The notes below the pieces were generated by a model. The model was not told where the DNA came from and made no database searches. It was given only the letters and a program-made list of their open reading frames with translations. From NCBI GenBank assembly GCA_020724865.1, contig DYGA01000002.1:12032-76031 (forward strand): DNA of 64,000 nt, given 5' to 3'. The stretch's first letter is position 1, and the number at the start of each line of letters is the position of its first letter. Source of the stretch: Candidatus Paceibacter sp. Its GTDB lineage: Bacteria; Patescibacteriota; Patescibacteriia; S139-126. The position numbers and the translations under genes are program-made. Positions 6,568 through 32,479 of the stretch are shown here, in pieces.

Positions 6568-6573
6568 AAAAAT

Positions 6574-6807
6574 ATGGTAATCAAAATTCTTGGTTCAGGC
6601 TGTCCCAATTGTTTAAAATTGGAAGCCAATGCCAAACAAGCTGTCGCAGAGCTTGGTTTAAAAGATATAAATATAGAACATGTATATGATTTTGAAGAAA
6701 TTTTAGAATATGGCGTTATGGCTACGCCAGCAATTGTGATTGATGAACAAGTAAAAGCAGCCGGAAGAATCGTGCCCGCCGAAGAAATAAAGACTTGGTT
6801 AAAATAA
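6574..6807 (+). CDS. Small thioredoxin-fold protein (redox-active disulfide protein 2 type, CxxC)
   Basis: GSGCPNC motif, 77 aa. Typical companion of ArsP-type permeases. Confidence 0.7.
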   Translation: MVIKILGSGCPNCLKLEANAKQAVAELGLKDINIEHVYDFEEILEYGVMATPAIVIDEQVKAAGRIVPAEEIKTWLK

Positions 6808-7925
6808 AAAATATGAAAAAAGAATTAAAAATCATGGCGTTACTATTGGGTCTATTTTTACTGTTTTATTTTATGCCTCTGAATTCGGTATTATTTACTG
6901 ATGCTGTGTTCTCTGGTTTAGCCTTACTCAATGAATATGCTAGACAACATGTATTAACTTGCTTAGTGCCAGCATTTTTTATTGCCGGTGCAATTTCTGT
7001 ATTTGTTAAAAAAGATTTTGTTTTAAAGTATTTGGGCGGGCAAGCAAAAAAAATCGTTTCGTATTCTTTAGCTTCGGTATCTGGAGCAATTTTGGCGGTG
7101 TGTTCTTGTACTATATTGCCGTTGTTTGCCGGCATTAGGAAAAGGGGAGCAGGACTGGGCCCGGCAATTACTTTTTTATTTTCTGGACCGGCCATCAATA
7201 TCGCAGCTATGTTTCTCACTTTGTCAGTTTTGGGTTTGAATATTGGTTTAGCCAGAATTATTTCAGCTATTTTTCTATCTATCTTAGTTGGTTTGTCCAT
7301 GCAGTTAATATTTAGAGAAAAAACCGAAAACGGTAATCTTTTTATAGAACAAAGCAACCAACCTTCTTATGGTAAAATTACAGTTTTAATTTTTATGTTG
7401 ACTATGGTTGGTATTTTAGTGGTCAATGGTCTGCAGATCGGTGTAACGATTAAATACTTACTCATGGCAGGTTTAACGATAGTAGTGGCGATAATTGCTT
7501 TGACTAAATTCCAAAAACAAACTAACCACGAATGGCTCAAAGAAACTTGGAGTTTTACTAAAATGCTTTTACCAATTTTGTTTATTGGTGTATTTATAGC
7601 CGGGTTTATTATGCCGTTTTTACCAGAAAGTTTAATTGTTAAATTGGTTGGGACAAATTCAGTTTCAGGCAACTTAGTGTCTTCTATTTTTGGCGCTTTT
7701 ATGTATTTTTCTACATTGACAGAAATTCCTATACTACAGGCTTTAATTGCCAAAGGTATGAATCAAGGGCCGGCTCTTGCTTTACTTTTAGCTGGACCAT
7801 CTTTGAGCCTTCCCAATATGTTGGTGGTCAGGCGCATTTTGGGAAATAAAAAAACGGCTGTTTATGTTTTATTGGTTATATTTTACTCAACTATTGCTGG
7901 TCTTATCTTTGGTAGTTTAATATAA
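6795..7925 (+). CDS. DUF318/ArsP-family permease (putative organoarsenical or metal efflux permease)
   Basis: Polytopic membrane protein with the conserved CSC motif (AVCSCTILPLFAG) and Gly-rich LGPAITFLFSGPAIN. Confidence 0.65.
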   Translation: MVKIKNMKKELKIMALLLGLFLLFYFMPLNSVLFTDAVFSGLALLNEYARQHVLTCLVPAFFIAGAISVFVKKDFVLKYLGGQAKKIVSYSLASVSGAILAVCSCTILPLFAGIRKRGAGLGPAITFLFSGPAINIAAMFLTLSVLGLNIGLARIISAIFLSILVGLSMQLIFREKTENGNLFIEQSNQPSYGKITVLIFMLTMVGILVVNGLQIGVTIKYLLMAGLTIVVAIIALTKFQKQTNHEWLKETWSFTKMLLPILFIGVFIAGFIMPFLPESLIVKLVGTNSVSGNLVSSIFGAFMYFSTLTEIPILQALIAKGMNQGPALALLLAGPSLSLPNMLVVRRILGNKKTAVYVLLVIFYSTIAGLIFGSLI

Positions 7926-7937
7926 AATAAAAATAAT

Positions 7938-9137
7938 ATGTATAAAAAAATTTTATTTCTACTATTTTTTGTTTCTTTATTGTTTATTCCTCAGCAAAAT
8001 GTTTTTGCCCAAGATTCATCTCAAACCAATATTTATTTTTTTTGGGGACAGGGTTGCCCTCACTGTGCTAAAGCTGAACCATTTTTGAAAAAACTTGATC
8101 AACAATACAGCGATGTCACTTTATATGATTTTGAGGTGTATTATAATCGTACTAACCAAAAATTATTACAAGAGGTGGGACGAACTTTGGGTATAAATAT
8201 TTCTGGCGTACCAGCAATTATTATTGGCGATCAGGCAATTATTGGTTTTAGTGAAACTATTACTCCCAGTGAAATAGAGCGGCGAGTAGAAATGTGTCAG
8301 CAGTTGGGTTGTCCTGATGAAATCGGTAAAATTTTAGGTATAGAAAAAAAAGAACCAATTGTTGAACCAGTGACAGAAAATATTAAATCTATCAAGATTC
8401 AAGTCCCTTTTTTACATGAGATTGAAACTAAAGATTTTTCTCTGCCAGTCCTGACAATTATATTGGGGGTATTGGACGGTTTTAATCCTTGTGCCATGTG
8501 GGTACTTTTGTTTTTAATCAGTTTACTACTGGGCATGAAAGATAAAAAGCGGATGTGGATTTTGGGCAGTGCTTTTATTATTGCTTCAGCTTTAGTTTAT
8601 TTTATTTTTATGGCCGCTTGGTTGAATTTAATAATTTTTTTAGGTTTTATAGTTTGGATCAGAGTATTGATTGGTTTGATAGCTTTGGCAGGCGGCGGAT
8701 ATAATTTGAAAGAATATTTTACCAACCCCGAAGGTGCCTGTAAAGTTACTAATACGGAAAAACGGCAAAAAGTTTTTACCAAATTGAAAGACATTACTCA
8801 ACAAAAAAGTTTTTATTTGGCTTTAGGCGGAATAATACTTTTGGCTTTTGCTGTCAATTTGGTAGAACTTGTTTGTTCAGCCGGGTTACCAGCTGTATAT
8901 ACTCAAGTTTTGGCTTTAAATGATTTAGCTAAGTGGCAATATTATCTATACATCAGTCTGTATATTTTGGTTTTTATGTTTGATGATTTATTGGTGTTTT
9001 TTGTGGCCATGACTACATTGCAGATAACTGGACTTACTACCAAATATACTCGCTACTCTCATTTAATCGGCGGAATTTTAATGGTAATTATTGGGTTATT
9101 GCTCATTTTTAAACCTGAAGCATTGATGTTTGGGTAG
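7938..9137 (+). CDS. Thioredoxin-like domain fused to a DsbD/CcdA-type thiol:disulfide transporter membrane domain
   Basis: Signal peptide, then WGQGCPHC thioredoxin motif. Membrane part has GFNPCAMWVL and VELVCSAG, the Cys-in-TM pattern of the CcdA/DsbD family. Confidence 0.65.
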   Translation: MYKKILFLLFFVSLLFIPQQNVFAQDSSQTNIYFFWGQGCPHCAKAEPFLKKLDQQYSDVTLYDFEVYYNRTNQKLLQEVGRTLGINISGVPAIIIGDQAIIGFSETITPSEIERRVEMCQQLGCPDEIGKILGIEKKEPIVEPVTENIKSIKIQVPFLHEIETKDFSLPVLTIILGVLDGFNPCAMWVLLFLISLLLGMKDKKRMWILGSAFIIASALVYFIFMAAWLNLIIFLGFIVWIRVLIGLIALAGGGYNLKEYFTNPEGACKVTNTEKRQKVFTKLKDITQQKSFYLALGGIILLAFAVNLVELVCSAGLPAVYTQVLALNDLAKWQYYLYISLYILVFMFDDLLVFFVAMTTLQITGLTTKYTRYSHLIGGILMVIIGLLLIFKPEALMFG

Positions 9138-9354
9138 TTTAAATTGTTTTTTTGATATTAAAAAAATGGTAAATTTATTATATGAGTAGAACAAAATTGT
9201 TTTACCATTATTTAATTTAATGGCGATTTTATTGATAAGAGGAGTAATTTGGTTTTTTGATGGCAATGGGATGATTTCTTGCAATTTATTAACAGAATAT
9301 AAATTTTCTGAAGATTTCTAAAATAGTAGCGTTCCAGTATAATAATTAAAAAAT

Positions 9355-9376
9355 CTCGCTAGCTAGCGAGGTTTTT
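9355..9376 (+). terminator. Perfect 16-nt GC-rich palindrome (ctcgctagctagcgag) plus a T-run; terminator-like hairpin
   Basis: Read directly from the sequence. It sits immediately 5' of the truncated ABC ORF. Confidence 0.55.
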
Positions 9377-9379
9377 CGT

Positions 9380-9811
9380 TTGCGCTATTTAGGATATGTT
9401 TTTCAAGATTATGCTTTATTGCCTGAATTAACTGCTTGGGAAAATGTGGCCGTGCCTTTATTAATGATGGGACAAAGCAAAGCACAAGCTTATGAAAATT
9501 CTGTAGCTGCCTTAGAACAAGTTGACTTAGCTGATAAAATAAACAATTTACCTTCTCAGTTATCTGGGGGACAGCAGCAGAGGGTGAGTATTGCTCGGGC
9601 GATTGCTCATAATCCCAAAATAATTTTTGCTGATGAGCCAACAGCTAATTTGGATAGTATTACTTCAAAAAATATTTTATCAGTTTTTGCAAAATTGCAC
9701 GAAGCTGGACAAACCATTGTAATGGTAACTCACGAGTTAGATTATGCTCGTACAGCCGGTAGAATAATAGAAATATCTGACGGCGTCATCGTATCAGATA
9801 AAAAAGCTTAA
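9380..9811 (+). pseudogene. 5'-truncated ABC-transporter ATP-binding protein (FtsE/LolD/MacB-like). Retains Q-loop, signature LSGGQQQR, Walker B and H-loop. Lacks Walker A.
   Basis: 143 aa ORF starting with TTG right after a hairpin. The first ~80 aa of a normal ABC ATPase are absent. Confidence 0.65.
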
Positions 9812-9830
9812 ATGTTCTGAAACATGTTTC

Positions 9831-9859
9831 TTGACAGATTTTTTTATTTTTCATAAAAT
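9831..9859 (+). promoter_or_regulatory. Promoter of the copper operon (TTGACA-17-TAAAAT). A 12-nt palindrome gaaacatgtttc abuts the -35.
   Basis: ttgacagatttttttatttttcataaaat. Confidence 0.55.
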
Positions 9860-9871
9860 CCCTATATAGGG
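9860..9871 (+). promoter_or_regulatory. Candidate CsoR operator: 12-nt palindrome ccctatataggg immediately downstream of the -10
   Basis: GC-flanked AT palindrome at the expected repressor position, upstream of the csoR-like gene. Confidence 0.45.
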
Positions 9872-9935
9872 GATATATAAAAAATTATAAATTTTAAATT
9901 ATTAATTATAAATTACTAATTATTAAATAATAAAT

Positions 9936-10208
9936 ATGGATCGGCGGAGAAAAACGACAGTTAAGTCCCGAGCTTTGCATCGGATAAAAATTATTCAGGG
10001 GCATTTGCGGTCAGTGGAAAGGATGTTAGACCGTAATTCTTATTGTATAGATATAGTTCATCAGTCACGAGCAATACAAAAAGCTTTAAAGCAATTAGAT
10101 TTGTTGATTATTGAGGATCATCTTAAACATTGCGTTGTCGATCAAGTGCGACATGGTCAAGAACAAAAAACCACTAAAGAATTGTTAAAATTATATGAGT
10201 ATAAATAA
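9936..10208 (+). CDS. csoR: CsoR/RcnR-family metal-sensing transcriptional repressor
   Basis: 90 aa, DUF156-like helix bundle with conserved Cys/His (SYCIDIVHQ...LKHCV). Confidence 0.7.
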   Translation: MDRRRKTTVKSRALHRIKIIQGHLRSVERMLDRNSYCIDIVHQSRAIQKALKQLDLLIIEDHLKHCVVDQVRHGQEQKTTKELLKLYEYK

Positions 10209-11688
10209 AAATATTGAAAAAAAGATTTTTTATGTTGAAGGTATGCATTGCTCATCCTGCGAACTGTTGATTGAAAAAAAATTATTAAAAAAAGAAGGCA
10301 TCAAAGCAGTTGAAGCATCATTAAATAAAGGACAAGTTTGTGTTTATTTTTCAGAAAAGAAAAATTTGGATTTAGACAAAATAAATCAAGAATTTAAATC
10401 TTTAGGTTATAGTTTTTTTACTGAACCACAAATAAAACAAAATAAAAAATTATTTTATCAAACAGAAGGTAAGTGGCAGATAAATAAAGATAAATTGATT
10501 GCTTTTTTAAAAACATCGATTTTAGCTTTTAGTTTTTTATTGGCATTTTATTTTTTAGATAAATGGCAACTAGGCAGATTTATTTCTGTAGATACACGTT
10601 CGTCTTTATCAGCTTTTTTTATTTTAGGAGTTATAGCTAGTGTGTCTAGTTGCGCTGCTTTGGTTGGGGGTGTGCTTTTAGCCATGACAAAAAAATGGCA
10701 TGAGGCTTATATTGATAGTGACAATAATTTTCAGAAAACTTTGCCCCATTGGTTATTTCATTTAGGTAGATTGTTAGCATTTTTTATTTTAGGTGGATTT
10801 TTAGGTTGGCTGGGCAGTGGTTTGTCTTTCAATAATACTTTTGGTTACGCTGTTTTAGTGGGATTGGTATCATTACTAATGATTATTTTAGCTTTGCAAA
10901 TGTTGGAGGTAAGTTGGGCGAAAAAGATTTCTTTGCGCTTGCCAAAATTTATTACTAGAAAAGTAGCTAGTGAAAATAGTTGGCAGGGTAAATATTCACC
11001 TTTTTTACTTGGAGTATTAACTTTTTTTCTGCCTTGTGGTTTTACTTTGATTGCTCAAGGTATTGCCCTGACTACAGGTAGTTTTCTGGCGGGGGCTAGT
11101 ATTATGTTGTTTTTTGCTTTAGGAACTTTGCCAATGTTAGCAAGTATAAGTTATACTGGCTATCGTTTTACTCAAAAACCTCATCTGACTGCTAAATTTT
11201 CCAAGGTTGCCGGCATTATTATAATATTTTTTGCCATTTACAATATCAACGGACAGCTCAATGTTATGGGATTACCCAGCTTACATGATTTAAAAAATTA
11301 TTCTAATGCCAAAATAACCACGCCGTCAGAGCCAATTATTTTATTTGGGCCTGATGCCGGTAAAACTTTATCCGTTAGTAAAAATAATTCTGAAAAAAAG
11401 GTTCAAGTTACAGATGATATTCAACAATTAGAGATTATTGCTCAAGGTTTTGAGTATACAAATTCTGGCAACACAGTTTTGCGAGCAAATGTTCCTACCG
11501 TTATGATCGTTGATAATCAGGGAATTTTAGGTTGCGGTGCTCAAATGGCTGCTCGTGGATTGTTCAGTGGTTTTGTCAATTTAAAACCGGGTATAAATAA
11601 AATTGATTTAGGCAGGCCCAAAGCCGGTAGCTATAAAATTACTTGCTCTATGGGCATGGTTCCGCCAATTACGGTTACTTTTCAATAA
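10195..11688 (+). CDS. Three-part protein: N-terminal heavy-metal-associated (HMA) domain, polytopic membrane domain (DsbD_2/TauE-like, Cys in TM), C-terminal cupredoxin-like domain
   Basis: GMHCSSCELL HMA motif. Membrane segments with SSCAAL and FLPCGF. C-terminal YKITCSMGMVPPITV resembles cupredoxin_1 copper sites. Confidence 0.55.
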   Translation: MSINKNIEKKIFYVEGMHCSSCELLIEKKLLKKEGIKAVEASLNKGQVCVYFSEKKNLDLDKINQEFKSLGYSFFTEPQIKQNKKLFYQTEGKWQINKDKLIAFLKTSILAFSFLLAFYFLDKWQLGRFISVDTRSSLSAFFILGVIASVSSCAALVGGVLLAMTKKWHEAYIDSDNNFQKTLPHWLFHLGRLLAFFILGGFLGWLGSGLSFNNTFGYAVLVGLVSLLMIILALQMLEVSWAKKISLRLPKFITRKVASENSWQGKYSPFLLGVLTFFLPCGFTLIAQGIALTTGSFLAGASIMLFFALGTLPMLASISYTGYRFTQKPHLTAKFSKVAGIIIIFFAIYNINGQLNVMGLPSLHDLKNYSNAKITTPSEPIILFGPDAGKTLSVSKNNSEKKVQVTDDIQQLEIIAQGFEYTNSGNTVLRANVPTVMIVDNQGILGCGAQMAARGLFSGFVNLKPGINKIDLGRPKAGSYKITCSMGMVPPITVTFQ

Positions 11689-11703
11689 TAAATAAAATAA
11701 AAG

Positions 11704-11913
11704 ATGACAAAATTAATAGTCAAAGGCATGCATTGTTCTGCTTGCCAGAGTTTAATAAAAATGGAGCTTGAAGAAAAAGGTTTGCCAGTCCAAGAAGTAA
11801 AATTACTTGCCGGAGATAGGGGCGAGGTTGAATTTGCAGATTTAAATGAAGAACAAATAAATTTAGCTAAAAAAACTATTGAAAAAATGGACAATTATTC
11901 TGTCATTTCTTAA
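11704..11913 (+). CDS. copZ: Copper chaperone, single HMA domain
   Basis: 69 aa with GMHCSACQ. Confidence 0.7.
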
Positions 11914-11924
11914 ATATAAAAAAT

Positions 11925-14396
11925 ATGATTACTAAAATATATCCAATCGTTGGCATGCACTGCGCCTCCTGTAAGAGGTTGATAGAAAAAATGGTAAGTA
12001 AAGTACCCGGAGTAAGTGCTGTGGAGGTAAATTATGCCGCGGAACAAATGAAAGTCGTTTATGATGAAAATAAAGTTAGTACCCAGGATTTAATAGCGGC
12101 CGTTAGCAGCGCTGGAAGTTATCGTTTAATAACTGCTTCTGATTCGGATGAGATTGTTTTAGCAGATCCTAATCAGGCAAAAAAAATTATAGATAAACAT
12201 AAATTATTGTCTGATCATCAGGAACATGCATCAGCTTTGCGGCAACAGGAATACTTGTCTTTGCGCTCAAGAGTTGTGTTGGTTGCCCTGCTGAGCTTGC
12301 CTTTTTTTATTTTGATGATTTACATGATTTTGGCAAAGTTAGGATGGACAAATATGCCGATGTCACCATGGGGTTATTTAAGAATTGATAAATTTAATTA
12401 TCAAATTGATTTGTTTTATTTAGGACAATTTTTATTAGCTACGCCAATAGTATTTATCGGAGGTAAACAATTTTTTCAAAGCGCTTGGTCTGCTTTGCGA
12501 GTAAAATCAGCCAATATGGACAGTTTAATTTCTTTAGGGGTAGCAGTTGCTTGGTTATATTCAACTTTGGTAACATTTTTTTCTTGGCTGTTTAGTGATC
12601 TAAAGGTTGAAGTATTTTTTGAAGCCGCTGTGTTTATTACTTTTTTTATACTTTTAGGGAGATTATTTGAAGCTCGAGCCAAAGGTCAAGCCAGTGACGC
12701 TATTAAGGCGTTATTGCAACTCGGGGCCAAAGAAGCCATAGTTATCAGAGACAATAAAGAAATAAAAATTCCTGTTTCTGAAGTAGTGCAAGGAGATATT
12801 TTAATTGTCCGACCGGGAGAAAAGATTCCTGTAGATGGTGAAATTATTTTTGGCAATAGCACGGTTGATGAAGCAATGATTACTGGCGAATCAATGCCGG
12901 TAGAAAAAAATGTTGGCGATAAGGTAATTGGGGCCACGATAAATAAGATGGGAAGTTTTAAATTTAGGGCAGAAAAAGTTGGCAGTGACACACTCTTATC
13001 TCAAATCATAAAAATGGTTCAAGAAGCGCAAAGTAGTACGCCGCCAATTCAAAAATTGGCTGATAAGATTTCTGCTGTTTTTGTACCGATAGTAATTACC
13101 ATTGCGATTTTGGCTTTTTTGTTTTGGTTATTGTTAGCGCCACGGTTAGGTTTATTGCCACCAGATGTTTCTATTTGGCAGTTAGCAGTTTACATTGCTA
13201 TAACAATTTTAATAATAGCTTGTCCTTGTGCTTTGGGGTTAGCTACGCCGACAGCAGTAATGGTTGGCGCAGGCAAAGCGGCTAAATCAGGGATTTTGAT
13301 CAAAGATGCCACTGCGTTGGAGTGGGCTAATCAGATAAAGAAAATTGTATTTGATAAAACTGGTACTTTGACTAAAGGTGAACCAACGGTTACGGATTGT
13401 CAAATATTAACTGACAAAGATAAAAAAGAAATATTGAGTTTAGCTTACGCTGTTGAACATATTTCTGAACACCCTTTGTCTATGGCTATTACCAATTATG
13501 CCAAACAGTATGATTTGCAATTTGATCTGGAAGTAGAAGATTTCCAGAGTTTAACTGGTTTAGGGGTTAGCGGGGTTGTTGCTGGAAAAAAAATATTATT
13601 GGGCAATGAGAAATTATTAAAAAGTCAAAATATAAATATTAATGCGTTTGATAATTTATCTAAAGCATGGAAAAATAACGGCAAAACTTTGGCTTATATG
13701 GCAATTGACAACGAATTGGTCGCTGTGTTTGCTTTGGCAGACGTAGTCAAAAATGAAGCCAGAGATTCAATAGTTAAATTACACGCTTTAGGAATTACCA
13801 CTATTATGTTAACTGGTGACAATGAAGTTACTGCTCGGGCGATTGCCAAACAGTTAGGAATAGATGAAGTTATTGCTGAAGTGATGCCGCAGGATAAAGC
13901 TGAAATTATCAAAAAAATACAAGCAGAAACTCAAGGCAAAGTGGCTATGGTTGGAGATGGGATCAATGACGCACCGGCTTTGGCTCAAGCGGATATTGGG
14001 ATTGCCATGGGAACCGGCACTGATGTGGCTATTGAAACTGGCAGTGTAGTTTTAGTAAAGGGAAGTTTAGATAAGGTAGTAGAAACAATAGAATTGTCTC
14101 GTTTGACTTTTAGTATTATAAAACAAAATTTATTTTGGGCTTTTGGTTATAATATTATTGCCATTCCAATTGCAGCTGGATTATTGTATCCGAGTATGAA
14201 ATTGTTACTTTCACCGATTATGGCAGCGGCGGCCATGGCTTTTAGTTCTATCTCGGTAGTGCTAAATAGTGTGCGTTTAAAAAGTTTAACCAGCAAAAAC
14301 AAATTAATATCTAATACTTTTTTTTATATTTTTATTTTTACTTTTGTGGTCCTAGTGTTTTATTTTAGTTTTATGCTTAGCATGGAAATGAAATAA
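11925..14396 (+). CDS. copA: Copper-translocating P1B-type ATPase
   Basis: N-terminal HMA (GMHCASC), CPC motif ([10 protein letters not shown]), [15 protein letters not shown]. Confidence 0.9.
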
Positions 14397-14417
14397 AAAA
14401 CAAGTTATTTAGAAAAG

Positions 14418-14450
14418 GACTGTCCTGAGAGTGGGCAGTCTTTATTTTTT
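14418..14450 (+). terminator. Rho-independent terminator after copA
   Basis: gactgtcc-tgagagt-gggcagtc followed by tttattttttt. Confidence 0.6.
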
Positions 14451-14528
14451 TAGATTAAATTTTTTTGGTTTTTTGGGCCAGATGTGAATATAGTACTTGG
14501 CAATGATTGATTTTTTTGTATACAATAA

Positions 14529-14927
14529 TTGAAAATCTTAAAATTAATTATATTATTTATGCGCAAAAGTTTTGTTGTTATTTTAGGGTTGTTACTAGTT
14601 TTTTTTGTAGGTTGTACTACTAAACAAGCTAGTCAAACAGCAGAAACAACATCAGTGAATAGCAATGAAAATGTGACAATTAGTAATTCAACATATACTA
14701 TGTCCGAAGTAGCCAGTCACAATACGCTCAGTGATTGTTGGACGGTTGTAAGAGGGCAGGTATATAATCTAACTGATTGGATTGGTAAGCATCCAGGAGG
14801 TGAGAAAGCTATTACCCAGCTTTGTGGTATTGATGGTACTGATAAATTTGTTGGCAAACATGGTGGTAAAGATTTACCGGAAAATACTTTGGCCGGATAT
14901 AAGATTGGCGATTTAGTTGCTGAGTAG
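14529..14927 (+). CDS. Lipoprotein with a cytochrome b5-like heme-binding domain
   Basis: Lipobox LLVFFVGCTT. HPGG motif (WIGKHPGGEKAI) with the flanking conserved pattern of the Cyt-b5 family. Confidence 0.65.
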   Translation: MKILKLIILFMRKSFVVILGLLLVFFVGCTTKQASQTAETTSVNSNENVTISNSTYTMSEVASHNTLSDCWTVVRGQVYNLTDWIGKHPGGEKAITQLCGIDGTDKFVGKHGGKDLPENTLAGYKIGDLVAE

Positions 14928-21673: not shown

Positions 21674-22888
21674 TTGATGAAAATTTATAGTAAAAAAATT
21701 TTATTGTTTTTTTTCATTTTAGTGGGCTCAAGTGGCTTGCTTTTTTATATTTTACAAAAACCAACTTTTTCTGAAGAAAAAAAGGTGGAACCTGAAGCGG
21801 TTGTATTTGTGCCGCCTGACAGAATTGTTGAATATGAAATTGTGGCTAACGATACTTATGGGGTGATCATGGCTAATCAAGGCATAAGTTCTATTGATAC
21901 GGCGGCCATATATCAAGCCGCTCAAGAGCAGTACGATTTAGCAAAAATTGGTGTAGGTAAAAAAATAAAATTTTATTTTAAACCGGAAACAGACGAGTTT
22001 TATAAATTGTATTATCAAATTGATAGTGAGGAAGAGTTATGGGTAGAAAAAGGAGATAATGGTGAATGGCAAGCAGCAAGACAAGACATACCTTATGAAA
22101 TAAAAATTGTTACCAGTAGTGGGACAATTGAAAAATTTTTATATGCTGACGCTTTAGCTGCCGGAGTAGACGAGCGGGCAGTAATTGCTTGGGCAGAGAT
22201 GTTGCAGTGGAGTTTGGATTTTGCTATGGATGTACAAGTGGGTGATTCTTATAAGTTTATTTATGAACAAAGGTTTTTAAACGGTGAATATGTTATGCCC
22301 GGTAGGGTATTGGCAGGAAAATTTATTAACGCTGGTAAAGCTTATTATGGTTTTAGCTATACTGATCCCGAAGGCAATAGCGGTTACTATGATGAACAGG
22401 GTAATAATGTGCAAAAAATGTTTCTAAAAGCACCGGTAGCTTTTAAATACATTTCTAGTGGTTTTACTACTGGTGCCAGATATATTCAAGCTTTTAATAT
22501 ATCCACTGGCCATCGGGCAATTGATTATGCGGCTGCGGCTGGAACTCCAGTTCGAAGTGTGGGCGCTGGTACAGTAATTTTTGCTGGCTGGGACGGATCT
22601 TATGGCAATAAAGTAAGCATCAGGCATAATGGTACTTATACCACTAACTATGCCCATTTATCTAAAATTTTAGTAAAACGCGGACAAAAGGTTAGTCAAG
22701 GTGATACTATTGGCTTAGTTGGTTCCACCGGGTTGTCAACCGGACCGCATTTGCATTATGAAATGGTAAAAAATGGCGTAAAAATAAATCCTTTACAGGA
22801 AGTATTGCCCCCCGGAGAACCTTTAAAAACTGAGTATCAGGATGATTATTTTGCTCAGATTGCTGTTTGGCAAGAACAACTTGATTAG
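21674..22888 (+). CDS. M23-family (LytM-like) metallopeptidase with an N-terminal membrane anchor
   Basis: HRAIDYAA...GAGTVIFAGWDGSYGNKVSIRH...GSTGLSTGPHLHYE (HxxxD and HxH motifs). Confidence 0.8.
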   Translation: MMKIYSKKILLFFFILVGSSGLLFYILQKPTFSEEKKVEPEAVVFVPPDRIVEYEIVANDTYGVIMANQGISSIDTAAIYQAAQEQYDLAKIGVGKKIKFYFKPETDEFYKLYYQIDSEEELWVEKGDNGEWQAARQDIPYEIKIVTSSGTIEKFLYADALAAGVDERAVIAWAEMLQWSLDFAMDVQVGDSYKFIYEQRFLNGEYVMPGRVLAGKFINAGKAYYGFSYTDPEGNSGYYDEQGNNVQKMFLKAPVAFKYISSGFTTGARYIQAFNISTGHRAIDYAAAAGTPVRSVGAGTVIFAGWDGSYGNKVSIRHNGTYTTNYAHLSKILVKRGQKVSQGDTIGLVGSTGLSTGPHLHYEMVKNGVKINPLQEVLPPGEPLKTEYQDDYFAQIAVWQEQLD

Positions 22889-22968
22889 AAATAAATTGAC
22901 AACTTGTATTTTTATATCTAAGATATTCTAATTGTTTTGTTTTTTTAAAAATAAATATAGGAGAAAGA

Positions 22969-23163
22969 GTGATGAAAAAGAAAGTAATGTTATTTTTATC
23001 AGTTTTATTTTTATTTTTTGGTTTATCATTTTGTGTGTTGTCTTCGTTTGTTCCTTTGACAATTATCCCAATATCTGGAGATCTTGCTTCCTTGGCTGGT
23101 TTGTTATTTTTGTTTATCTCTTTATGGTTATTGTTTAGGGCTGATCGAGTTAACAGCAATTAA
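22969..23163 (+). CDS. Small hydrophobic protein (two TM helices)
   Basis: 64 aa ORF with an upstream aggag RBS; weak support. Confidence 0.3.
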   Translation: MMKKKVMLFLSVLFLFFGLSFCVLSSFVPLTIIPISGDLASLAGLLFLFISLWLLFRADRVNSN

Positions 23164-23164: not shown

Positions 23165-24037
23165 TTATGCTTTGCCTTTAGGCAAAGCTTTTTTATTGGT
23201 TTTGATAAATTTTTCAAAGCTAGCTAGATTGTTGAAATATTTTATTAACGGAGAATTAATTTTTTTTTCACTTTCTTTCCAACCATTACCGCCGAAACCA
23301 AGAAAGATATTGTGTTTTTTAGCATAGGTAACTAAATCATTTAAAAATTTTTTATTATTAATTTTAGAATAAGTATTAGTGATACCAATAAAATGTGGTT
23401 GAATTTTTTTTGCGGCTTTAATAATTTCTGTGGCACTGATATTAATACCCAAAATATAATTTTTCCAACCATTGGCTTTTAGTAAGACAGCTATCATTTG
23501 CAATGGAATTTCATGATGATCGCCTTCAGCACAGGCCAGTATAGCTTTGGGTGCTTGGTTGTTAGGTTCTGGTATGATTTGTTCCAATGCGAACAATTGT
23601 AACCGTAAAATAAAACTCATTTGGTGTTCTTCAAAGATAGATATTTTGTTTTGCGCCCAATCGTTCCCAATTTTTACTAGCGTTGGCGTAAAAATATTTT
23701 CCAGTATTTTAATAACAGGATAATTTTTTAAAAATAATTGTTCAATAAATTTTTGGGCGCCAGCAGTATCAGATTTTTTCAAATAATCATAAAATTTAGG
23801 CCATAAAGAATCATTTATTTCTTTGGTTTTTAAGAGCCGAGATAAGGTGTAAGACTGATTAGCTAGTTTTGGATAGTTTTTAATAAATTTTTGTAATTCA
23901 ATTTTACTAATCCGTCGATGGCCGCCAGTTGTTTTTTGAGCTGGCAGCATACCTTTGTCTGCCCATCTTTTAATAGTGGAAACGTTAACGCCAAAGAGGC
24001 GAGCTAATTGGGGTGGTGTAAAATGCACGTTTTGCAT
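23165..24037 (-). CDS. MerR/excisionase-type HTH regulator with a C-terminal cobalamin (B12)-binding domain (CarH/LitR-like architecture)
   Basis: N-terminal HTH (LARLFGVNVSTIKRWADKGML). Middle helical bundle with a conserved Trp. C-terminal DxHxxG motif (AEGDHHEIPLQMIAVLLKANGW) plus ...GFGGNGW. Confidence 0.6.
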   Translation of the reverse strand: MQNVHFTPPQLARLFGVNVSTIKRWADKGMLPAQKTTGGHRRISKIELQKFIKNYPKLANQSYTLSRLLKTKEINDSLWPKFYDYLKKSDTAGAQKFIEQLFLKNYPVIKILENIFTPTLVKIGNDWAQNKISIFEEHQMSFILRLQLFALEQIIPEPNNQAPKAILACAEGDHHEIPLQMIAVLLKANGWKNYILGINISATEIIKAAKKIQPHFIGITNTYSKINNKKFLNDLVTYAKKHNIFLGFGGNGWKESEKKINSPLIKYFNNLASFEKFIKTNKKALPKGKA

Positions 24038-24103
24038 GTTTATAGTTTAACAGCTATATTAAATCTACGCAAATAGTGCGTTTTAATAATTAACCAAAAA
24101 AAT

Positions 24104-24958
24104 ATGAAAAAAATATTGTTTTCTTTAGTTATAGCCGTTTTGGTAGGAGGATTATTTACTCCTAGTGTCAAGGCTTACAGTGATACTAAAGGCAAGGTCC
24201 TTTTGCAAGTTGAGGATAAAGGTCAACTTTGGTATATCGCCAATGACGGCAAATCTAAGTTTTATTTAGGTTCGCCAGTTGATATGTTTCGCCTGATGCG
24301 TTTTCAGGGTGTGGGTATTTCCAATAGCGATTTAGCTAAAATTCCTGAAGCTGGTAAATCGCAGATGGGTGATAAAAATTTTGCCAATCTGCAAAAAGGT
24401 AAAATTTTATTACAGGTAGAGCAAAATGGTGAAGCCTGGTACGTTCATCCGCAAACCGGTGAAAGACATTATTTAGGCACACCTCAAGCAGCGTTTAATC
24501 TGTTTAAATCAATTGCAAGTGGCGCCAGTAATGCTCATTTGAGTAAAATACCTGAAGTTAAAGATATTACCTTGACCGCAATTAATGCCAAATCTTTTAA
24601 TACTTTGGTAGCAGCTCTTAGTGCCGCTGGATTGGCAGATGTTTTGCAAAATAGCGGACCATTTACAGTTTTTGCTCCCACTGATGAAGCTTTTGCTAAA
24701 TTACCAGCTGGTACGGTAGAATCTTTGCTAAATGATATTGATCAATTGACTAAAATATTAACTTACCATGTTGTTCCCGGTAAAGTATTAGCTAAGGATG
24801 TAGTTAAATTAAATTCGGCCCCAACAGTTAATGGTAAAAATATTAGTATTCAAGTTGATAATGGAAAAGTTTTGATTGATAATGCCAAAGTCACAGTAAC
24901 TGATATTATGGCTACCAATGGTGTAATTCATATTATAGATAGCGTTCTTCTACCGTAG
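24104..24958 (+). CDS. Secreted protein with two ~55-aa N-terminal repeats and a C-terminal fasciclin (FAS1) domain
   Basis: Signal peptide. Repeats KGKVLLQVEDKGQLWYI.../KGKILLQVEQNGEAWYV... FAS1 hallmarks TVFAPTDEAF...HVV...VIHIIDSVLLP. Confidence 0.75.
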   Translation: MKKILFSLVIAVLVGGLFTPSVKAYSDTKGKVLLQVEDKGQLWYIANDGKSKFYLGSPVDMFRLMRFQGVGISNSDLAKIPEAGKSQMGDKNFANLQKGKILLQVEQNGEAWYVHPQTGERHYLGTPQAAFNLFKSIASGASNAHLSKIPEVKDITLTAINAKSFNTLVAALSAAGLADVLQNSGPFTVFAPTDEAFAKLPAGTVESLLNDIDQLTKILTYHVVPGKVLAKDVVKLNSAPTVNGKNISIQVDNGKVLIDNAKVTVTDIMATNGVIHIIDSVLLP

Positions 24959-24978: not shown

Positions 24979-25008
24979 AAAGTCCTAAAATTTAGGACTT
25001 TTTTTTAT
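24979..25008 (+). terminator. Rho-independent terminator
   Basis: aaagtcctaaa-attt-taggacttt followed by tttttt. Confidence 0.7.
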
Positions 25009-25055
25009 AATTAATATATATGTTATACTAGAAATATAAAGATTAATATTTATCT

Positions 25056-25298
25056 ATGATTGATTATCAATTAGCTTTGAACATAATAAAAATTGCCGGT
25101 ATTACCAATATTTTGTTTTTACTACTGACTTTTTTTTCTTGTCGTTGTTTAATGGGTCCCAAATTATCACAAAAGTTAGTACAGTATGAATGGTTTAAAA
25201 AGTTTTATCGCTGGCATTGTTATTTTTGGTGGGGATTTTATATTTCCGTAATTATCCACACTATATTTGCTTGGTATTTGTTTGGCTTTGGTTTTTAG
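25056..25298 (+). CDS. Small membrane protein
   Basis: 80 aa, two hydrophobic helices. Confidence 0.35.
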   Translation: MIDYQLALNIIKIAGITNILFLLLTFFSCRCLMGPKLSQKLVQYEWFKKFYRWHCYFWWGFYISVIIHTIFAWYLFGFGF

Positions 25299-25458
25299 AC
25301 TACGGAATAAAATTTAGTCACTGATATTTAAATGATTAAAATACCTGGAAAAAATAATTAGATAATAAAAATATTTTAAGCAATTTGTCAGGTATTTACG
25401 CGAGAGCGGATTAAATTTTTACCCTACACAAAATTTGTTTCAGTCAAAAATATAATAT

Positions 25459-25950
25459 ATGTATCGGATAATTTTTTATATTTTTTTATTTTTTGTTTTT
25501 ACAGGTTGTGCCACCCAGTCAACATTTACTAATCAGAATATTAATAATAATTATATGCAATTAACTAGTAAAGATTTTTCCGATCATACATATTTATCTT
25601 CTGAATTTACTTGTGATGGCGAAAACAAAAGACCCCAATTAGCTTGGTCACAAGTGCCTACAGCAACCAAGTCGCTGGCTTTGGCCATGTTTGATCCTGA
25701 CGCTCCAGGAGATGGGTTTTTACATTGGTTGGTAGTAAATTTACCGCCGCAGGATTTATCATTGGCTAGCTCTGACAATTTACCTTCACCGGCAATGCAG
25801 ATAAAAAATGATGCAGGAAAATTTGAATATTTTGGACCTTGTCCGCCTCAGGGAGTACATCGTTATCAGTTTACTTTGTATGCTTTAGATGTTCCATCTA
25901 TAAATCCAACAGATTATCAAGATTTTTGCAGCAGATTAATGGACATATAG
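25459..25950 (+). CDS. YbhB/YbcL-family PEBP (Raf-kinase-inhibitor-like) lipoprotein
   Basis: Lipobox FTGCAT. DPDAP and HRY motifs (MFDPDAPGDGFLHW...GVHRYQFTLYALD). Confidence 0.8.
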   Translation: MYRIIFYIFLFFVFTGCATQSTFTNQNINNNYMQLTSKDFSDHTYLSSEFTCDGENKRPQLAWSQVPTATKSLALAMFDPDAPGDGFLHWLVVNLPPQDLSLASSDNLPSPAMQIKNDAGKFEYFGPCPPQGVHRYQFTLYALDVPSINPTDYQDFCSRLMDI

Positions 25951-31854: not shown

Positions 31855-31931
31855 TGGTGACAGGGGGCGGAGTTGAACCGCCGACCTAGGGGTTATGATT
31901 CCCTCGCTCTAACCAACTGAGCTACCCTGCC
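31855..31931 (-). tRNA. tRNA with anticodon CAU (elongator Met, or Ile if lysidinylated)
   Basis: Manual fold: GGCAGGG acceptor, GCTC/GAGC D-stem, anticodon loop aTCATaa, T-loop TTCAACT, CCA end encoded. Confidence 0.7.
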
Positions 31932-31932
31932 T

Positions 31933-32008
31933 TGGTAGCGGGGGCTGGACTCGAACCAGCGACCTCCAGGTTATGGGCCTGGCGAGCTGCCAACTGCTCT
32001 ACCCCGCG
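31933..32008 (-). tRNA. tRNA-Met (CAU), initiator-like: 5' CGCGGGG...CCCCGCU-A-CCA, very similar to E. coli tRNA-fMet, with an unpaired 1:72 position (C1.U72) and C33
   Basis: Manual fold. 1-nt spacer to the neighbouring tRNA. Confidence 0.65.
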
Positions 32009-32148
32009 TCGATAAATACGCTTAAAGATTATATCTTATTTATCTAAATTTTTCAAGATATTTTTTAATAAACCTTAAAATATTACTTATTTCTTAATAC
32101 TTTATTCTGTTTTACATTAACAGAATTAATCAGGTTAATACAAAAGCA

Positions 32149-32235
32149 TGGTGCCGCGGGAGAGAATCGAACTCTCATGAGCTTGCGCTCACAGGTTTTT
32201 GAGACCTGCGTGTCTACCAATTCCACCACCGCGGC
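32149..32235 (-). tRNA. tRNA-Leu (CAA) with a long variable arm
   Basis: GCCGCGGTGGTGGAATTGGTAGACAC...anticodon loop CTCAAAA...long variable arm...TTCGATT T-loop...CCA. Confidence 0.8.
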
Positions 32236-32242
32236 GTATTTT

Positions 32243-32479
32243 CTATTGTATATTTTTTAAATATTCTTTACCAATTCCTGATTTTAAATATTTCTCTCTT
32301 TTCCGTGCTTGTAACCGTGTGTCATAGGTTTCGTAGATTATCAATTGAAATGGCTTATAAGGCTTTGTCGTTTTATTTAAACCAGTGTTATGTTGATGAA
32401 ACCTTCTTTTTAAATCATTAGTTAATCCTACATATATATAATTTTTGTTTACACTTTTTATGGCGTACACAAAATACAT
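32243..32479 (-). CDS. Stand-alone GIY-YIG nuclease-domain protein (78 aa)
   Basis: YFVYAIKS...YIYVGLTNDLKRRFHQHN... = GIY-YIG core (Y..Y.....YVG...N...R...H) and C-terminal basic helix (RKREKYLK). Confidence 0.75.
   Translation of the reverse strand: MYFVYAIKSVNKNYIYVGLTNDLKRRFHQHNTGLNKTTKPYKPFQLIIYETYDTRLQARKREKYLKSGIGKEYLKNIQ

What the first reader, a model, noticed from the sequence alone, without database searches (positions are those of the whole stretch)
23165..24037. CarH/LitR-like B12-binding MerR-type regulator
HTH + helical bundle + DxHxxG...GG cobalamin-binding domain is the architecture of light-responsive AdoCbl photoreceptor repressors. If the assignment holds, it implies light- or B12-responsive gene control in an organism that almost certainly cannot make cobalamin itself. 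The gene is divergent from the secreted fasciclin-repeat protein gene, a plausible target.
Basis: partly seen in the sequence, partly recalled or inferred. Interest (0 to 1): 0.5.

Follow-up and report, generated by a model that had tools for sequence, protein, structure and literature searches.

The report
B12-based light-switch regulator in Patescibacteria
This gene encodes a CarH-type repressor that most likely uses coenzyme B12 (adenosylcobalamin) as a light-breakable cofactor; it belongs to a previously undiscussed clade common in tiny-genome Patescibacteria, where it sits back-to-back with a fasciclin-domain gene rather than with the usual carotenoid genes.

Summary
The ORF at 23165-24037 (-) is real. 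Its best solved relatives, by sequence and by fold, are all adenosylcobalamin (AdoCbl) photoreceptors: CtMerR (8JBS), TtCarH and photocobilins. The residues that cap the adenosyl group (W127-x9-E137-H138) and the lower-ligand His175 are present and nearly invariant in about 100 homologues. Almost all of the homologues that carry a taxon label are Patescibacteria MAGs.

Three details depart from the signature: DxHxxG reads DxHxxP, GxxxP reads GxxxS, and the CarH His132 position is Ala.

The divergent fasciclin gene is a conserved partner. Of 34 non-redundant loci, 18 have a fasciclin gene at -1 and 16 have a DUF378 gene at -1 or -2 (22 of 34 in all); one has DUF378 plus heliorhodopsin. Non-CPR sister homologues flank crtI/crtB/lycopene cyclase and carry a clear 9-bp direct-repeat operator. 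That operator is absent here, and no operator could be defined in the window.

Some relatives appear to come from dark aquifers, so B12 sensing without light remains a live rival.

Verdict: interpretation supported; a new member of a known kind; moderate interest.

The parts
23165..24037 (-). Regulator gene, 290 aa: CtMerR-type member of the CarH/LitR family
   Evidence: ORF; Pfam domains; PDB sequence hits CtMerR and TtCarH; fold search; about 100 homologues, 35-50% identical over 86-99% of the length.
23876..24022 (-). N-terminal winged helix-turn-helix (aa 6-54), of the excisionase/BldC-like branch of the MerR superfamily
   Evidence: HTH_17 E 9.7e-11 and MerR E 1.7e-8. BldC subfamily E 5.5e-12, below its cut-off. 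BldC structures 6ama/6amk E ~1e-6. T21, K23, R24, W25, G38 and H40 are invariant in alignment A1.
23603..23794 (-). Four-helix-bundle cap (B12-binding_2, aa 82-145). It carries G124-x-x-W127 and E137-H138, the Wx9EH motif that contacts the 5'-deoxyadenosyl group in CarH and CtMerR. Codons: W127 = 23657-23659; E137-H138 = 23624-23629.
   Evidence: Pfam; residue-by-residue alignment to TtCarH and CtMerR. Conservation in 102 close homologues: W 88 (Y 12), E 99, H 102. Role of the residues from PMC11796333.
23288..23548 (-). Rossmann-type cobalamin-binding domain (aa 164-250). Holds D173-x-H175 (lower axial His, codon 23513-23515), G197-x-x-x-S201 and G249-G250.
   Evidence: Pfam B12-binding E 3.4e-12. 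H175 aligns with TtCarH H177 and CtMerR H204. H175 is conserved in 97/102 and G197 in 102/102; position 201 is S in 49 and P in 35.
24044..24072 (-). Predicted promoter of the regulator: -35 TTGCGT (24067-24072), 17-nt spacer, TG (24051-24052), -10 TAAACT (24044-24049). The -10 ends 7 nt before the ATG, which implies a leaderless mRNA.
   Evidence: An ungapped alignment of 33 CPR-clade loci anchored on the ATG gives cTTGCgtA...atA..ATAc.TGaTA.aaTaAAAAC-ATG at a fixed distance. This is an inference from conservation; no transcript data.
24067..24081 (.). Inverted repeat ACGCA-N5-TGCGT overlapping the regulator's -35. It could be an operator, or back-to-back -35 boxes of the two divergent promoters.
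   Evidence: It occurs once in the window, but 46 of 100 shuffles give at least one such site somewhere. Ten of the 31 loci with 100 nt of upstream sequence show an inverted repeat whose right arm overlaps the regulator's -35, with variable arm sequences. It is broken by a G>A change in the 96%-identical relative L001. Weak.
24104..24958 (+). Divergent gene for a secreted protein: signal peptide, two unassigned ~55-aa repeats, one FAS1 (fasciclin) domain. This is the most likely regulated target.
   Evidence: Pfam Fasciclin E 8.9e-43. A Fasciclin gene sits at the divergent -1 position in 18 of 34 non-redundant CPR-clade loci, and all 19 such proteins hit PF02469. Nearest solved bacterial FAS1 proteins: Fdp 1w7d and CupS; AstaP is also matched.
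25056..25950 (+). Same-strand genes downstream of the fasciclin gene: an 80-aa membrane ORF (25056-25298) and a PEBP-family protein (25459-25950). They may be co-regulated, but nothing shows it.
   Evidence: Pfam PBP E 5.6e-34; the 80-aa ORF has no family. The arrangement is seen only in near-identical relatives. A separate promoter-like site lies at 25001-25029.
23169..23188 (+). Terminator-like hairpin plus T-run on the + strand. It lies inside the last codons of the regulator and probably terminates the convergent upstream genes.
   Evidence: scan_promoters_terminators.

Best explanation
The gene encodes a CarH-family transcriptional repressor of the CtMerR subtype.

Shown by sequence and fold:
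- An excisionase/BldC-like winged HTH is fused to a helical-bundle plus Rossmann cobalamin-binding module.
- That module keeps the lower-ligand His (H175) and the Wx9EH cap (W127, E137, H138), which is specific for the adenosyl upper ligand.

Inferred by analogy with CtMerR and TtCarH:
- In the dark the protein binds adenosylcobalamin and assembles into an oligomer, probably a tetramer.
- The oligomer occupies the 66-bp region between its own leaderless promoter and the divergent fasciclin gene, and represses one or both.
- Green, blue or UV light breaks the Co-C bond, the oligomer falls apart, and the genes are expressed.

Inferred from synteny:
- The conserved output in Patescibacteria is a FAS1 (fasciclin) protein, usually together with a small DUF378 membrane protein. 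It is not carotenoid synthesis.

The cofactor must be scavenged. Without AdoCbl the repressor would be inactive, so the same switch also reports B12 supply.
For: Architecture and signature residues.

Fold: pLDDT 90.4. The top 48 PDB fold hits are all AdoCbl photoreceptors, and the first non-photoreceptor (methionine synthase) appears at rank 49.

Closest characterised relative: CtMerR. It binds AdoCbl, photolyses under 530-nm light, and goes from tetramer to monomer although it lacks the CarH His132 (PMC11796333).

Family-level link to light: in 53 sister-clade loci the regulator is flanked by crtI (29), lycopene cyclase (23), crtB (18), pyrimidine-dimer glycosylase (7) and YbgA/DUF1722 (6). 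61 of 95 loci carry the tandem direct repeat CGCTCA-N3-CGCTCA next to the promoter, against 1.55 in shuffles, as expected for head-to-tail CarH/BldC-like binding.

CPR clade: a divergent Fasciclin and/or DUF378 gene in 22 of 34 loci. One locus has DUF378 plus heliorhodopsin divergent from the regulator.

The regulator's promoter is packed against the target gene within 43-96 bp in most loci, the same divergent layout as T. thermophilus carH-crtB (my own knowledge).
Against: - No operator could be defined in the window or the CPR clade. There is no direct repeat. The sister-clade repeat is absent. The only palindrome is statistically weak and is not conserved in the nearest relative.
- The signature is incomplete: GxxxP reads GxxxS, DxHxxG reads DxHxxP, and the bis-His residue is Ala128.
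- Nothing else related to light or B12 lies in the 64-kb window, and there is no cobalamin riboswitch.
- Only 1 of 39 CPR-clade loci has a rhodopsin nearby.
- Several homologues come from MAGs whose names fit a landfill aquifer and leachate wells, which are aphotic.
- No adenosyltransferase-like signature was seen in 616 kb of held CPR-type loci. This was a crude regex test.
- Cofactor binding, photolysis, oligomerisation and DNA binding are all untested for this protein.
Confidence: 0.6

Rival explanations
1. This is a vitamin-B12 status sensor rather than a light sensor. It works by the same AdoCbl-dependent oligomerisation and DNA binding. In permanently dark habitats, however, the physiological variable is whether scavenged AdoCbl is available. 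The FAS1/DUF378 genes are ON when B12 is scarce and OFF when it is plentiful, in place of the cobalamin riboswitches that other bacteria use.
For: MAGs carrying close homologues are named SO_2016_GW1, SO_2017_GW1 and SO_2017_LW4. These names fit the groundwater and leachate wells of a Southern Ontario landfill, where Patescibacteria reach 79% of the community (PMC9723747). The match is by name only. No cobalamin riboswitch is present in the window. The organism is presumed to be a B12 auxotroph. In the CarH mechanism the apo-protein does not repress, so B12 dependence is built in.
Against: The Wx9EH/GxxH signature that is conserved here is the one that separates photoreceptor CBDs from light-independent ones (PMC11796333). 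The sister clade is tied to carotenoid and UV-repair genes. One CPR locus is tied to heliorhodopsin. Other homologues come from glacier-fed-stream and apparently lake MAGs. FAS1 and DUF378 have no known link to B12 uptake.
Confidence: 0.25
2. The regulator is as described, but the fasciclin gene is not its target. The regulator would control only itself, or distant genes, and the divergent arrangement would be coincidental in this genome.
For: No operator was identified between the genes. 12 of 34 loci have other genes upstream, including ZIP, YibE_F, CorA and ABC exporters. The window lacks the DUF378 partner.
Against: A Fasciclin gene sits at the divergent -1 position in 18 of 34 non-redundant loci that share only 35-50% regulator identity. 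This is far beyond chance for a domain family that I assume (not measured here) occurs only once or twice per genome. Intergenic distances of 43-96 bp force the promoters to overlap.
Confidence: 0.1
3. The domain has degenerated or been repurposed. It no longer binds AdoCbl, like B12-independent CarA or class III LitR proteins, or it binds another corrinoid form, and the protein is a constitutive or differently gated regulator.
For: Pro is replaced by Ser in GxxxP, Gly by Pro in DxHxxG, and the His132 position is Ala. A few family members have lost the lower-ligand His (5 of 102) or have Tyr instead of Trp (12 of 102).
Against: The window protein keeps W127, E137, H138, H175, G124, G172 and G197, and these are under strong conservation across the clade. 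CtMerR has Ala at the Gly position of the motif and Arg at the His132 position, yet it works as a photoreceptor.
Confidence: 0.05

Closest known systems
CtMerR (Chloracidobacterium thermophilum, WP_157850694; PDB 8JBS/8JBT; Yu et al., FEBS J 2024, PMC11796333)
   Same: Best sequence hit among solved structures (E 2.5e-24, two stretches covering the HTH and the CBD). It has the same HTH type (…S.VKRW…GGHRR), the same bundle-plus-Rossmann module (TM 0.82, rmsd 2.4 A), and the GxxW, EH and GxxH signature. It also lacks the CarH His132. CtMerR was shown to bind AdoCbl, to photolyse in green light, and to go from tetramer to monomer.
   Different: The aligned stretches are only weakly similar (Foldseek gives 22% identity over the CBD). 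The window protein has Ser where CtMerR has the signature Pro (GxxxP). The phylum differs. The DNA site and regulon of CtMerR are unknown, so no functional comparison of outputs is possible.
CarH / LitR of Thermus thermophilus, Myxococcus xanthus and Bacillus megaterium (PDB 5C8D/5C8E/5C8F, 3WHP)
   Same: Overall architecture and length. Full-length alignment at E 7e-13. Top fold hits. W131/E141/H142/H177 are equivalent to W127/E137/H138/H175. The regulator and its target are divergently arranged.
   Different: The NCBIfam CarH equivalog scores 54.9 bits against a 400-bit cut-off. The DNA-binding domain belongs to the HTH_17/BldC branch. His132 is replaced by Ala. No 11-bp direct-repeat operator is present. 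The neighbours are FAS1/DUF378 genes, not carotenoid genes.
Uncharacterised sister clade in Marinimicrobia, Calditrichia, Ignavibacteria and Bacteroidota (loci L029-L084 and L108-L164)
   Same: Same domain order and the same recognition helix (VN[VE]STIKRW). 26-34% identity over the full length.
   Different: The sister clade sits next to crtI/crtB/lycopene cyclase and often a TonB-dependent receptor. It has the CGCTCA-N3-CGCTCA operator. The window clade has neither.
BldC (Streptomyces; PDB 6AMA/6AMK)
   Same: The DNA-binding domain resembles BldC (NCBIfam BldC E 5.5e-12; PDB E ~1e-6). BldC binds direct repeats head-to-tail (my own knowledge).
   Different: BldC is a ~70-aa stand-alone DNA-binding domain with no sensor domain. 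The score is below the family cut-off of 77 bits.
Corrinoid proteins and methionine synthase B12 domains (MtaC, MtbC, MetH)
   Same: They share the B12-binding_2 plus B12-binding module and the lower-ligand His.
   Different: They have no HTH. They score weaker (E 1e-5 to 1e-8). They carry methyl- rather than adenosyl-cobalamin chemistry, and they lack the Wx9EH photoreceptor cap according to PMC11796333.

Membership tests
CarH/LitR-family AdoCbl photoreceptor regulators (including the CtMerR subtype) | N-terminal MerR-superfamily winged HTH | tested here: met
   HTH_17 E 9.7e-11, MerR E 1.7e-8, MerR_1 E 1.5e-6, all above their cut-offs.
CarH/LitR-family AdoCbl photoreceptor regulators (including the CtMerR subtype) | Four-helix bundle plus Rossmann cobalamin-binding module | tested here: met
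   B12-binding_2 E 2.5e-8 and B12-binding E 3.4e-12. AF2 model pLDDT 90.4; the top fold hits are CarH, CtMerR and photocobilin.
CarH/LitR-family AdoCbl photoreceptor regulators (including the CtMerR subtype) | Lower axial His in a (D/E)xHxxG motif (GxxH of the SignatureFinder signature) | tested here: met
   G172-D173-H174-H175 aligns with TtCarH GERH177 and CtMerR GDLH204. The His is conserved in 97 of 102. The trailing Gly is Pro here; it is Ala in CtMerR.
CarH/LitR-family AdoCbl photoreceptor regulators (including the CtMerR subtype) | GxxW and Wx9EH cap over the 5'-deoxyadenosyl group | tested here: met
   G124-N-D-W127 …(9)… E137-H138. H138 is invariant and E137 nearly invariant in A1.
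CarH/LitR-family AdoCbl photoreceptor regulators (including the CtMerR subtype) | GxxxP loop at the dimer interface (fourth signature element of PMC11796333) | tested here: not met
   G197-I-N-I-S201. The Gly is invariant, but the Pro is Ser here; across the clade the position is S in 49 and P in 35.
CarH/LitR-family AdoCbl photoreceptor regulators (including the CtMerR subtype) | His132 of TtCarH, which forms the bis-His light state | tested here: not met
   Ala128. This feature does not define the wider family: CtMerR has Arg at this position and still monomerises in light.
CarH/LitR-family AdoCbl photoreceptor regulators (including the CtMerR subtype) | AdoCbl binding, photolysis, and a light-dependent change of oligomeric state | not testable with these tools
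   Needs purified protein, UV-vis spectroscopy and SEC-MALS.
CarH/LitR-family AdoCbl photoreceptor regulators (including the CtMerR subtype) | Operator of tandem direct repeats overlapping a target promoter | tested here: inconclusive
   The window shows no direct repeats and no sister-type repeat. The sister clade has a strong 9-bp direct repeat. The CPR clade shows only promoter elements conserved at fixed positions.
CarH/LitR-family AdoCbl photoreceptor regulators (including the CtMerR subtype) | Genomic association with light-response genes (carotenoid synthesis, photolyase and similar) | tested here: inconclusive
   Met in the sister clade. In the CPR clade the partners are Fasciclin and DUF378, whose relation to light is unknown; one locus has heliorhodopsin.
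CarH equivalog (NCBIfam NF052513) | Whole-protein score at or above 400 bits | tested here: not met
   54.9 bits. It is a distant paralogous clade, not an orthologue of CarH.
Classical MerR activators (MerR, CueR, SoxR, TipA) | C-terminal coiled-coil dimerisation helix with an effector site; operator palindrome in an over-long 19-20-bp spacer | tested here: not met
   MerR, SoxR and CadR equivalogs score 12-18 bits. The HTH is followed by a B12 module. The predicted promoter spacer is 17 bp.
BldC family | Small stand-alone HTH protein (~70 aa); score at or above 77 bits | tested here: not met
   45.3 bits, and the protein is 290 aa with a sensor module.

The most novel reading that the evidence does not exclude
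In Patescibacteria this AdoCbl-gated repressor is the master switch of a conserved, uncharacterised FAS1 + DUF378 module. FAS1 domains can carry carotenoids (AstaP, PMC10147662). One locus couples DUF378 to heliorhodopsin. Eight of the 18 loci's -1 FAS1 partners are cytoplasmic. The module could therefore capture a host-derived lipophilic chromophore (carotenoid or retinal), or time host attachment to light. In aphotic aquifers the same switch would act as a protein-based vitamin-B12 sensor standing in for riboswitches. Either reading would make a scavenged vitamin the signal that couples an ultra-small symbiont to its environment or host.
Probability: 0.15. Interest if true: 0.7.

Novelty: new member of a known kind. 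Interest (0 to 1): 0.45.

Why it matters
B12-based photoreceptors have been studied in free-living carotenoid producers such as Thermus, Myxococcus, Bacillus and Streptomyces. This gene shows that a CtMerR-type version forms a widespread clade in Patescibacteria. The clade comprises about 100 clusters at 90% identity and about 40 at 50% identity. Patescibacteria have ~1-Mb genomes and must obtain the cofactor from other organisms. In the open-access literature I could search, work on light perception in this group covered only rhodopsins.

The conserved output, a fasciclin-domain protein plus DUF378, gives two families of unknown bacterial function a testable regulatory context: light and/or B12. 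The protein is small, its model is confident, and it could be tested in vitro directly.

The sister-clade operator found in passing (CGCTCA-N3-CGCTCA) gives a DNA site for the CtMerR-type DNA-binding domain. The 2024 structural paper left that site open.

Tried and rejected
- **Direct-repeat operator in 24038-24103.** The repeat finder with seed 6 found none. A single CarH-like ANNTNNACA occurs by eye at 24044-24052, but only once.
- **Sister-clade operator CGCTCA-N3-CGCTCA.** It is not enriched in the window (14 matches against 14.7 expected, none intergenic here) or in CPR-clade upstream regions (same mismatch distribution as shuffles).
- **Palindrome ACGCA-N5-TGCGT.** It is unique in the window, but 46% of shuffles give one somewhere. 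Similar palindromes overlapping the -35 occur in 10 of 31 loci, with different arm sequences and spacings. They look at least partly like back-to-back -35 boxes. The palindrome is broken in the 96%-identical relative.
- **Conserved ATA at -20..-18, also read as a 7-bp 'GATA' repeat.** The same ATA-N3-G-N-TA pattern occurs at three other promoter-like sites in the window. It may be a general promoter feature rather than an operator.
- **Cobalamin riboswitch or other Rfam family in the window.** Only four tRNAs were found.
- **B12 metabolism or uptake genes.** None among 20 Pfam-scanned proteins from 0-32 kb. The rest of the window looks like housekeeping genes by eye. A PduO-type N-terminal regex found nothing in the window or in 616 kb of CPR-type loci. 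This was a crude test.
- **Rhodopsins near other CPR-clade regulators.** Only L003 has one.
- **SQS_PSY and DUF4430 seen near the Kerfeldbacteria regulator.** Not repeated in other CPR loci.
- **Literature.** No paper in the library combines CarH with Patescibacteria, CPR with cobalamin photoreceptor, or heliorhodopsin with DUF378. DUF378 has no described function.
Full report
**1. The observation**

Pfam finds three domains above their curated cut-offs:
- HTH_17 at aa 6-54, E 9.7e-11 (also MerR, E 1.7e-8).
- B12-binding_2 at aa 82-145, E 2.5e-8.
- B12-binding at aa 164-250, E 3.4e-12.

The gene is divergent from a fasciclin-domain gene (24104-24958, Pfam Fasciclin E 8.9e-43) across 66 bp.

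Two details need correcting. The cobalamin motif reads G-D-H-H-E-I-P, which is DxHxxP rather than DxHxxG. The neighbour has a single FAS1 domain preceded by two unassigned ~55-aa repeats.

**2. What the protein is**

NCBIfam's best model is the CarH equivalog (E 7.8e-15). At 54.9 bits it falls far below the 400-bit cut-off, so the protein is a relative of CarH and not an orthologue.

Against all PDB sequences the best hit is 8JBS (E 2.5e-24), followed by T. thermophilus CarH/LitR at E ~7e-13 over the full length. Photocobilins come next, and methionine synthase and corrinoid proteins score more weakly.

8JBS is CtMerR from Chloracidobacterium thermophilum. Yu et al. (PMC11796333) showed that it binds AdoCbl, photolyses under 530-nm light, and goes from tetramer to monomer.

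Their four-element signature for light-responsive cobalamin domains maps onto the window protein as follows:

| Signature element | Window protein | Status |
|---|---|---|
| GxxW | G124-N-D-W127 | present |
| EH | E137-H138, nine residues after the Trp | present |
| GxxH | G172-D-H-H175 | present |
| GxxxP | G197-I-N-I-S201 | Pro replaced by Ser |

The residue equivalent to TtCarH His132 is Ala128 (bis-His light state). CtMerR has Arg at that position and still monomerises.

An AlphaFold2 model built on a 30-sequence alignment is confident (pLDDT 90.4). Its top 48 PDB fold matches are all CarH, CtMerR or photocobilin chains. The CtMerR cobalamin-binding domain matches at TM 0.82 and rmsd 2.4 A, and the first methionine synthase appears at rank 49.

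**3. The family**

The 5.8-billion-protein search returned 114 relatives.
- 102 of them are 35-50% identical over 86-99% of the length.
- Almost all of those that carry a taxon label are Patescibacteria MAGs (Kerfeldbacteria, Paceibacteria, Doudnabacteria, Saccharibacteria and unclassified).
- Sources name them 'cobalamin-dependent protein', 'excisionase family DNA binding protein' or 'light-induced transcriptional regulator'.

Conservation of the key residues in these 102:
- Trp in 88, with Tyr in 12.
- Glu in 99.
- The cap His in 102.
- The ligand His in 97.
- The loop Gly in 102.
- The GxxxP position is Ser in 49 and Pro in 35.

A profile-free scan of 1.84 billion cluster representatives gives 40 clusters at E<=1e-30 and 1312 at E<=1e-10.

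The window is identical over this gene to JGI contig Ga0246236_1000010 (346 kb). The same protein recurs in five other sequencing runs.

The window has ~33% G+C and typical small-genome content: ParAB, RelA, TopA, DprA, Der, HisRS, sortase and metal-efflux genes. This fits a Patescibacteria origin. I found no paper that links CarH-type photoreceptors with this group. Published work on light perception in CPR concerns rhodopsins and heliorhodopsins.

**4. Genomic context, CPR clade**

I fetched 160 related loci from genomes and metagenomes. I called ORFs, located the regulator with an HMM, and removed regulators more than 90% identical to each other. That left 39 CPR-type loci, 34 of which have an upstream ORF.
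- The gene immediately upstream and divergent is a Fasciclin protein in 18 loci.
- A DUF378 protein (68-79 aa, two predicted TM helices, GGLNWGLVG motif) is at -1 or -2 in 16 loci.
- The union is 22 of 34 loci, and 12 loci have both in the order regulator <-> FAS1 - DUF378.
- All 19 FAS1 candidates hit PF02469 and all 17 small proteins hit PF04070.
- One locus (L003) has the regulator divergent from DUF378 followed by heliorhodopsin. No other locus has a rhodopsin.
- The -1 FAS1 partner in eight of the 18 loci is 134-138 aa with no signal peptide, so it is cytoplasmic. The window's version has a signal peptide.
- The window has no DUF378 gene.

The nearest solved FAS1 proteins are TGFBIp and periostin, R. 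sphaeroides Fdp (E 2e-34), the cyanobacterial NDH-1 subunit CupS (E 7e-30) and the carotenoid-binding AstaP (E 2.8e-15) (AstaP: PMC10147662).

The remaining loci carry ZIP, CorA, YibE_F, DUF1858 or ABC-exporter genes upstream.

**5. Genomic context, sister clade**

Homologues of 26-34% identity occur in Marinimicrobia, Calditrichia, Ignavibacteria and Bacteroidota. They share the same recognition helix. Their neighbours in 53 loci are:
- phytoene desaturase, 29 loci
- lycopene cyclase, 23
- phytoene synthase, 18
- a TonB-dependent receptor, 16, mostly directly downstream
- pyrimidine-dimer glycosylase, 7
- YbgA/DUF1722, 6

This is the classical light-protection regulon of CarH-type regulators.

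Upstream of the regulator, 61 of 95 non-identical loci carry the tandem direct repeat CGCTCA-N3-CGCTCA. Shuffles give 1.55 on average and the opposite strand gives 14. Only the 9-bp period is enriched. The repeat usually lies a few bases upstream of a TTGACA -35, and some loci carry it twice.

This is strong comparative evidence that the CtMerR-type DNA-binding domain reads head-to-tail repeats, as CarH and BldC do.

**6. Promoter and operator in the window**

Anchoring 33 CPR-clade upstream regions on the ATG, without gaps, gives this consensus:

cTTGCgtA...atA..ATAc.TGaTA.aaTaAAAAC-ATG

It contains a -35, a 17-nt spacer, an extended -10, and a -10 hexamer that ends 7 nt before the start codon. 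There is no Shine-Dalgarno sequence. The fixed spacing across proteins that are only 35-50% identical argues for a leaderless mRNA.

In the window the elements are:
- -35 TTGCGT at 24067-24072
- TG at 24051-24052
- -10 TAAACT at 24044-24049

I could not define an operator.
- There are no direct repeats.
- The sister-clade repeat is absent from the window and from the clade.
- The inverted repeat ACGCA-N5-TGCGT (24067-24081) overlaps the -35, but it is statistically weak.
- Comparable inverted repeats occur in 10 of 31 loci with varying sequences. They look in part like back-to-back -35 boxes of the two divergent promoters.
- The repeat is broken in the 96%-identical relative L001.
- The conserved ATA in the spacer recurs at other promoter-like sites in the window.

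What can be said is that the two start codons are only 43-96 bp apart in most loci. A protein bound at the regulator's -35 would therefore also occlude the divergent promoter.

**7. Mechanism**

Shown:
- The architecture, fold and cofactor-contacting residues of an AdoCbl photoreceptor.
- Membership in the CtMerR branch.
- Conserved divergent FAS1/DUF378 partners.
- A conserved, probably leaderless promoter.

Inferred:
- AdoCbl-dependent oligomerisation and DNA binding in the dark.
- Photolysis and release in light.
- Repression of the fasciclin gene and probably of the regulator itself.
- Dependence on scavenged cofactor.

**8. The main rival**

The main rival is that in aphotic habitats the protein reports AdoCbl supply rather than light. 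MAG names SO_2016/2017_GW1 and LW4 fit the groundwater and leachate wells of a landfill where Patescibacteria dominate (PMC9723747). This is a name match, not a verified link.

No cobalamin riboswitch, cob/cbi gene, B12 transporter or adenosyltransferase was seen in the window. Sixty-four kilobases cannot settle the organism's B12 economy.

**9. Comparison with known systems and novelty**

The protein works like CarH and is closest to CtMerR. It is not a CarH orthologue, not a classical MerR activator and not a BldC.

What is new:
- The clade: Patescibacteria.
- Its output: FAS1 and DUF378 instead of carotenoid synthesis.
- Two deviations at signature positions: Ser201 and Ala128.

This makes it a new member of a known kind.

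Interest is moderate (0.45). The mechanism is expected. The setting is what raises questions: a vitamin-dependent light switch in an ultra-reduced, probably host-dependent bacterium, wired to two families of unknown function and present even in apparently dark habitats. Those questions are directly testable.

Noticed in passing
L029-L084 and L108-L164 (e.g. L054, L160, L141): Sister-clade homologues in Marinimicrobia, Calditrichia, Ignavibacteria and Bacteroidota carry the tandem direct repeat CGCTCA-N3-CGCTCA (9-bp period) just upstream of the regulator's TTGACA -35. It occurs in 61 of 95 loci against 1.55 in shuffles, and sometimes as two pairs. It is a candidate operator for the CtMerR-type DNA-binding domain, whose DNA site the 2024 structural paper left open.
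   Followed up: partly
window 24038-24072, and 33 related loci: The regulator genes of the CPR clade have -35, extended -10 and -10 elements at a fixed distance from the ATG. The -10 ends 7 nt upstream, followed by AAAAC-ATG with no Shine-Dalgarno sequence. This implies a conserved leaderless mRNA and an invariant MQNVHF N-terminus.
   Followed up: partly
L003:6798-7904: In one Patescibacteria genome (JGI 3300037046, 1.18-Mb contig) the regulator is divergent from a DUF378 gene followed by a heliorhodopsin gene. This places two light-related proteins in one small locus.
   Followed up: partly
L011, L012, L024, L025, L027, L087, L093, L103 (gene at -1): Eight of the 18 loci's -1 fasciclin partners are 134-138 aa with no signal peptide, so they are cytoplasmic single-FAS1 proteins. 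This is hard to reconcile with an adhesion role and recalls CupS or ligand-carrying FAS1 proteins such as AstaP.
   Followed up: no
window 24191-24556 (aa 30-83 and 99-151 of the fasciclin protein): Two tandem ~55-aa repeats (KGK[VI]LLQVE..G..WY......YLG.P...F.L......G.SN..L.KIPE) precede the FAS1 domain. They match no Pfam family.
   Followed up: no
window 6262-14927: Metal/redox island: ArsR-type regulator, Thioredoxin_3, ArsP permease, a CsoR-like metal-sensitive repressor, an HMA-DsbD_2 fusion protein, an HMA-containing P-type ATPase and a secreted cytochrome-b5-domain protein.
   Followed up: partly
window 52137-60164: A 2675-aa ORF with internal sequence repeats. An identical 23-mer occurs at 57978-58000 and 58239-58261. 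It is probably a giant surface protein and was not analysed.
   Followed up: no
window 2878-3582: A 234-aa protein combining an Mrr-type restriction-endonuclease domain with a topoisomerase-I-type C4 zinc ribbon.
   Followed up: no
sister-clade loci, gene +1 (e.g. L082): A TonB-dependent receptor with a CarboxypepD_reg N-domain lies directly downstream of the regulator in many sister-clade loci (16 of 53). It could be a corrinoid importer that supplies the chromophore.
   Followed up: no
L004:481-2210 (= L009): In the Kerfeldbacteria chromosome CP181398.1 an SQS_PSY (phytoene/squalene synthase) gene and a DUF4430 gene lie 6-7 kb from the regulator. From memory, DUF4430 is a transcobalamin-like C-terminal domain. 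The pair is not repeated in other CPR loci.
   Followed up: partly
window 22707-23159 (-) versus 22969-23163 (+): Public gene calls place a 150-aa low-complexity ORF directly downstream of the regulator on the same strand. The opposite strand holds a 64-aa two-TM ORF followed by a hairpin terminator (23169-23188), which seems the more plausible gene.
   Followed up: no
window 31855-32479: Two adjacent tRNA-Met genes and a tRNA-Leu gene lie next to a 78-aa ORF that looks by eye like a GIY-YIG nuclease.
   Followed up: no
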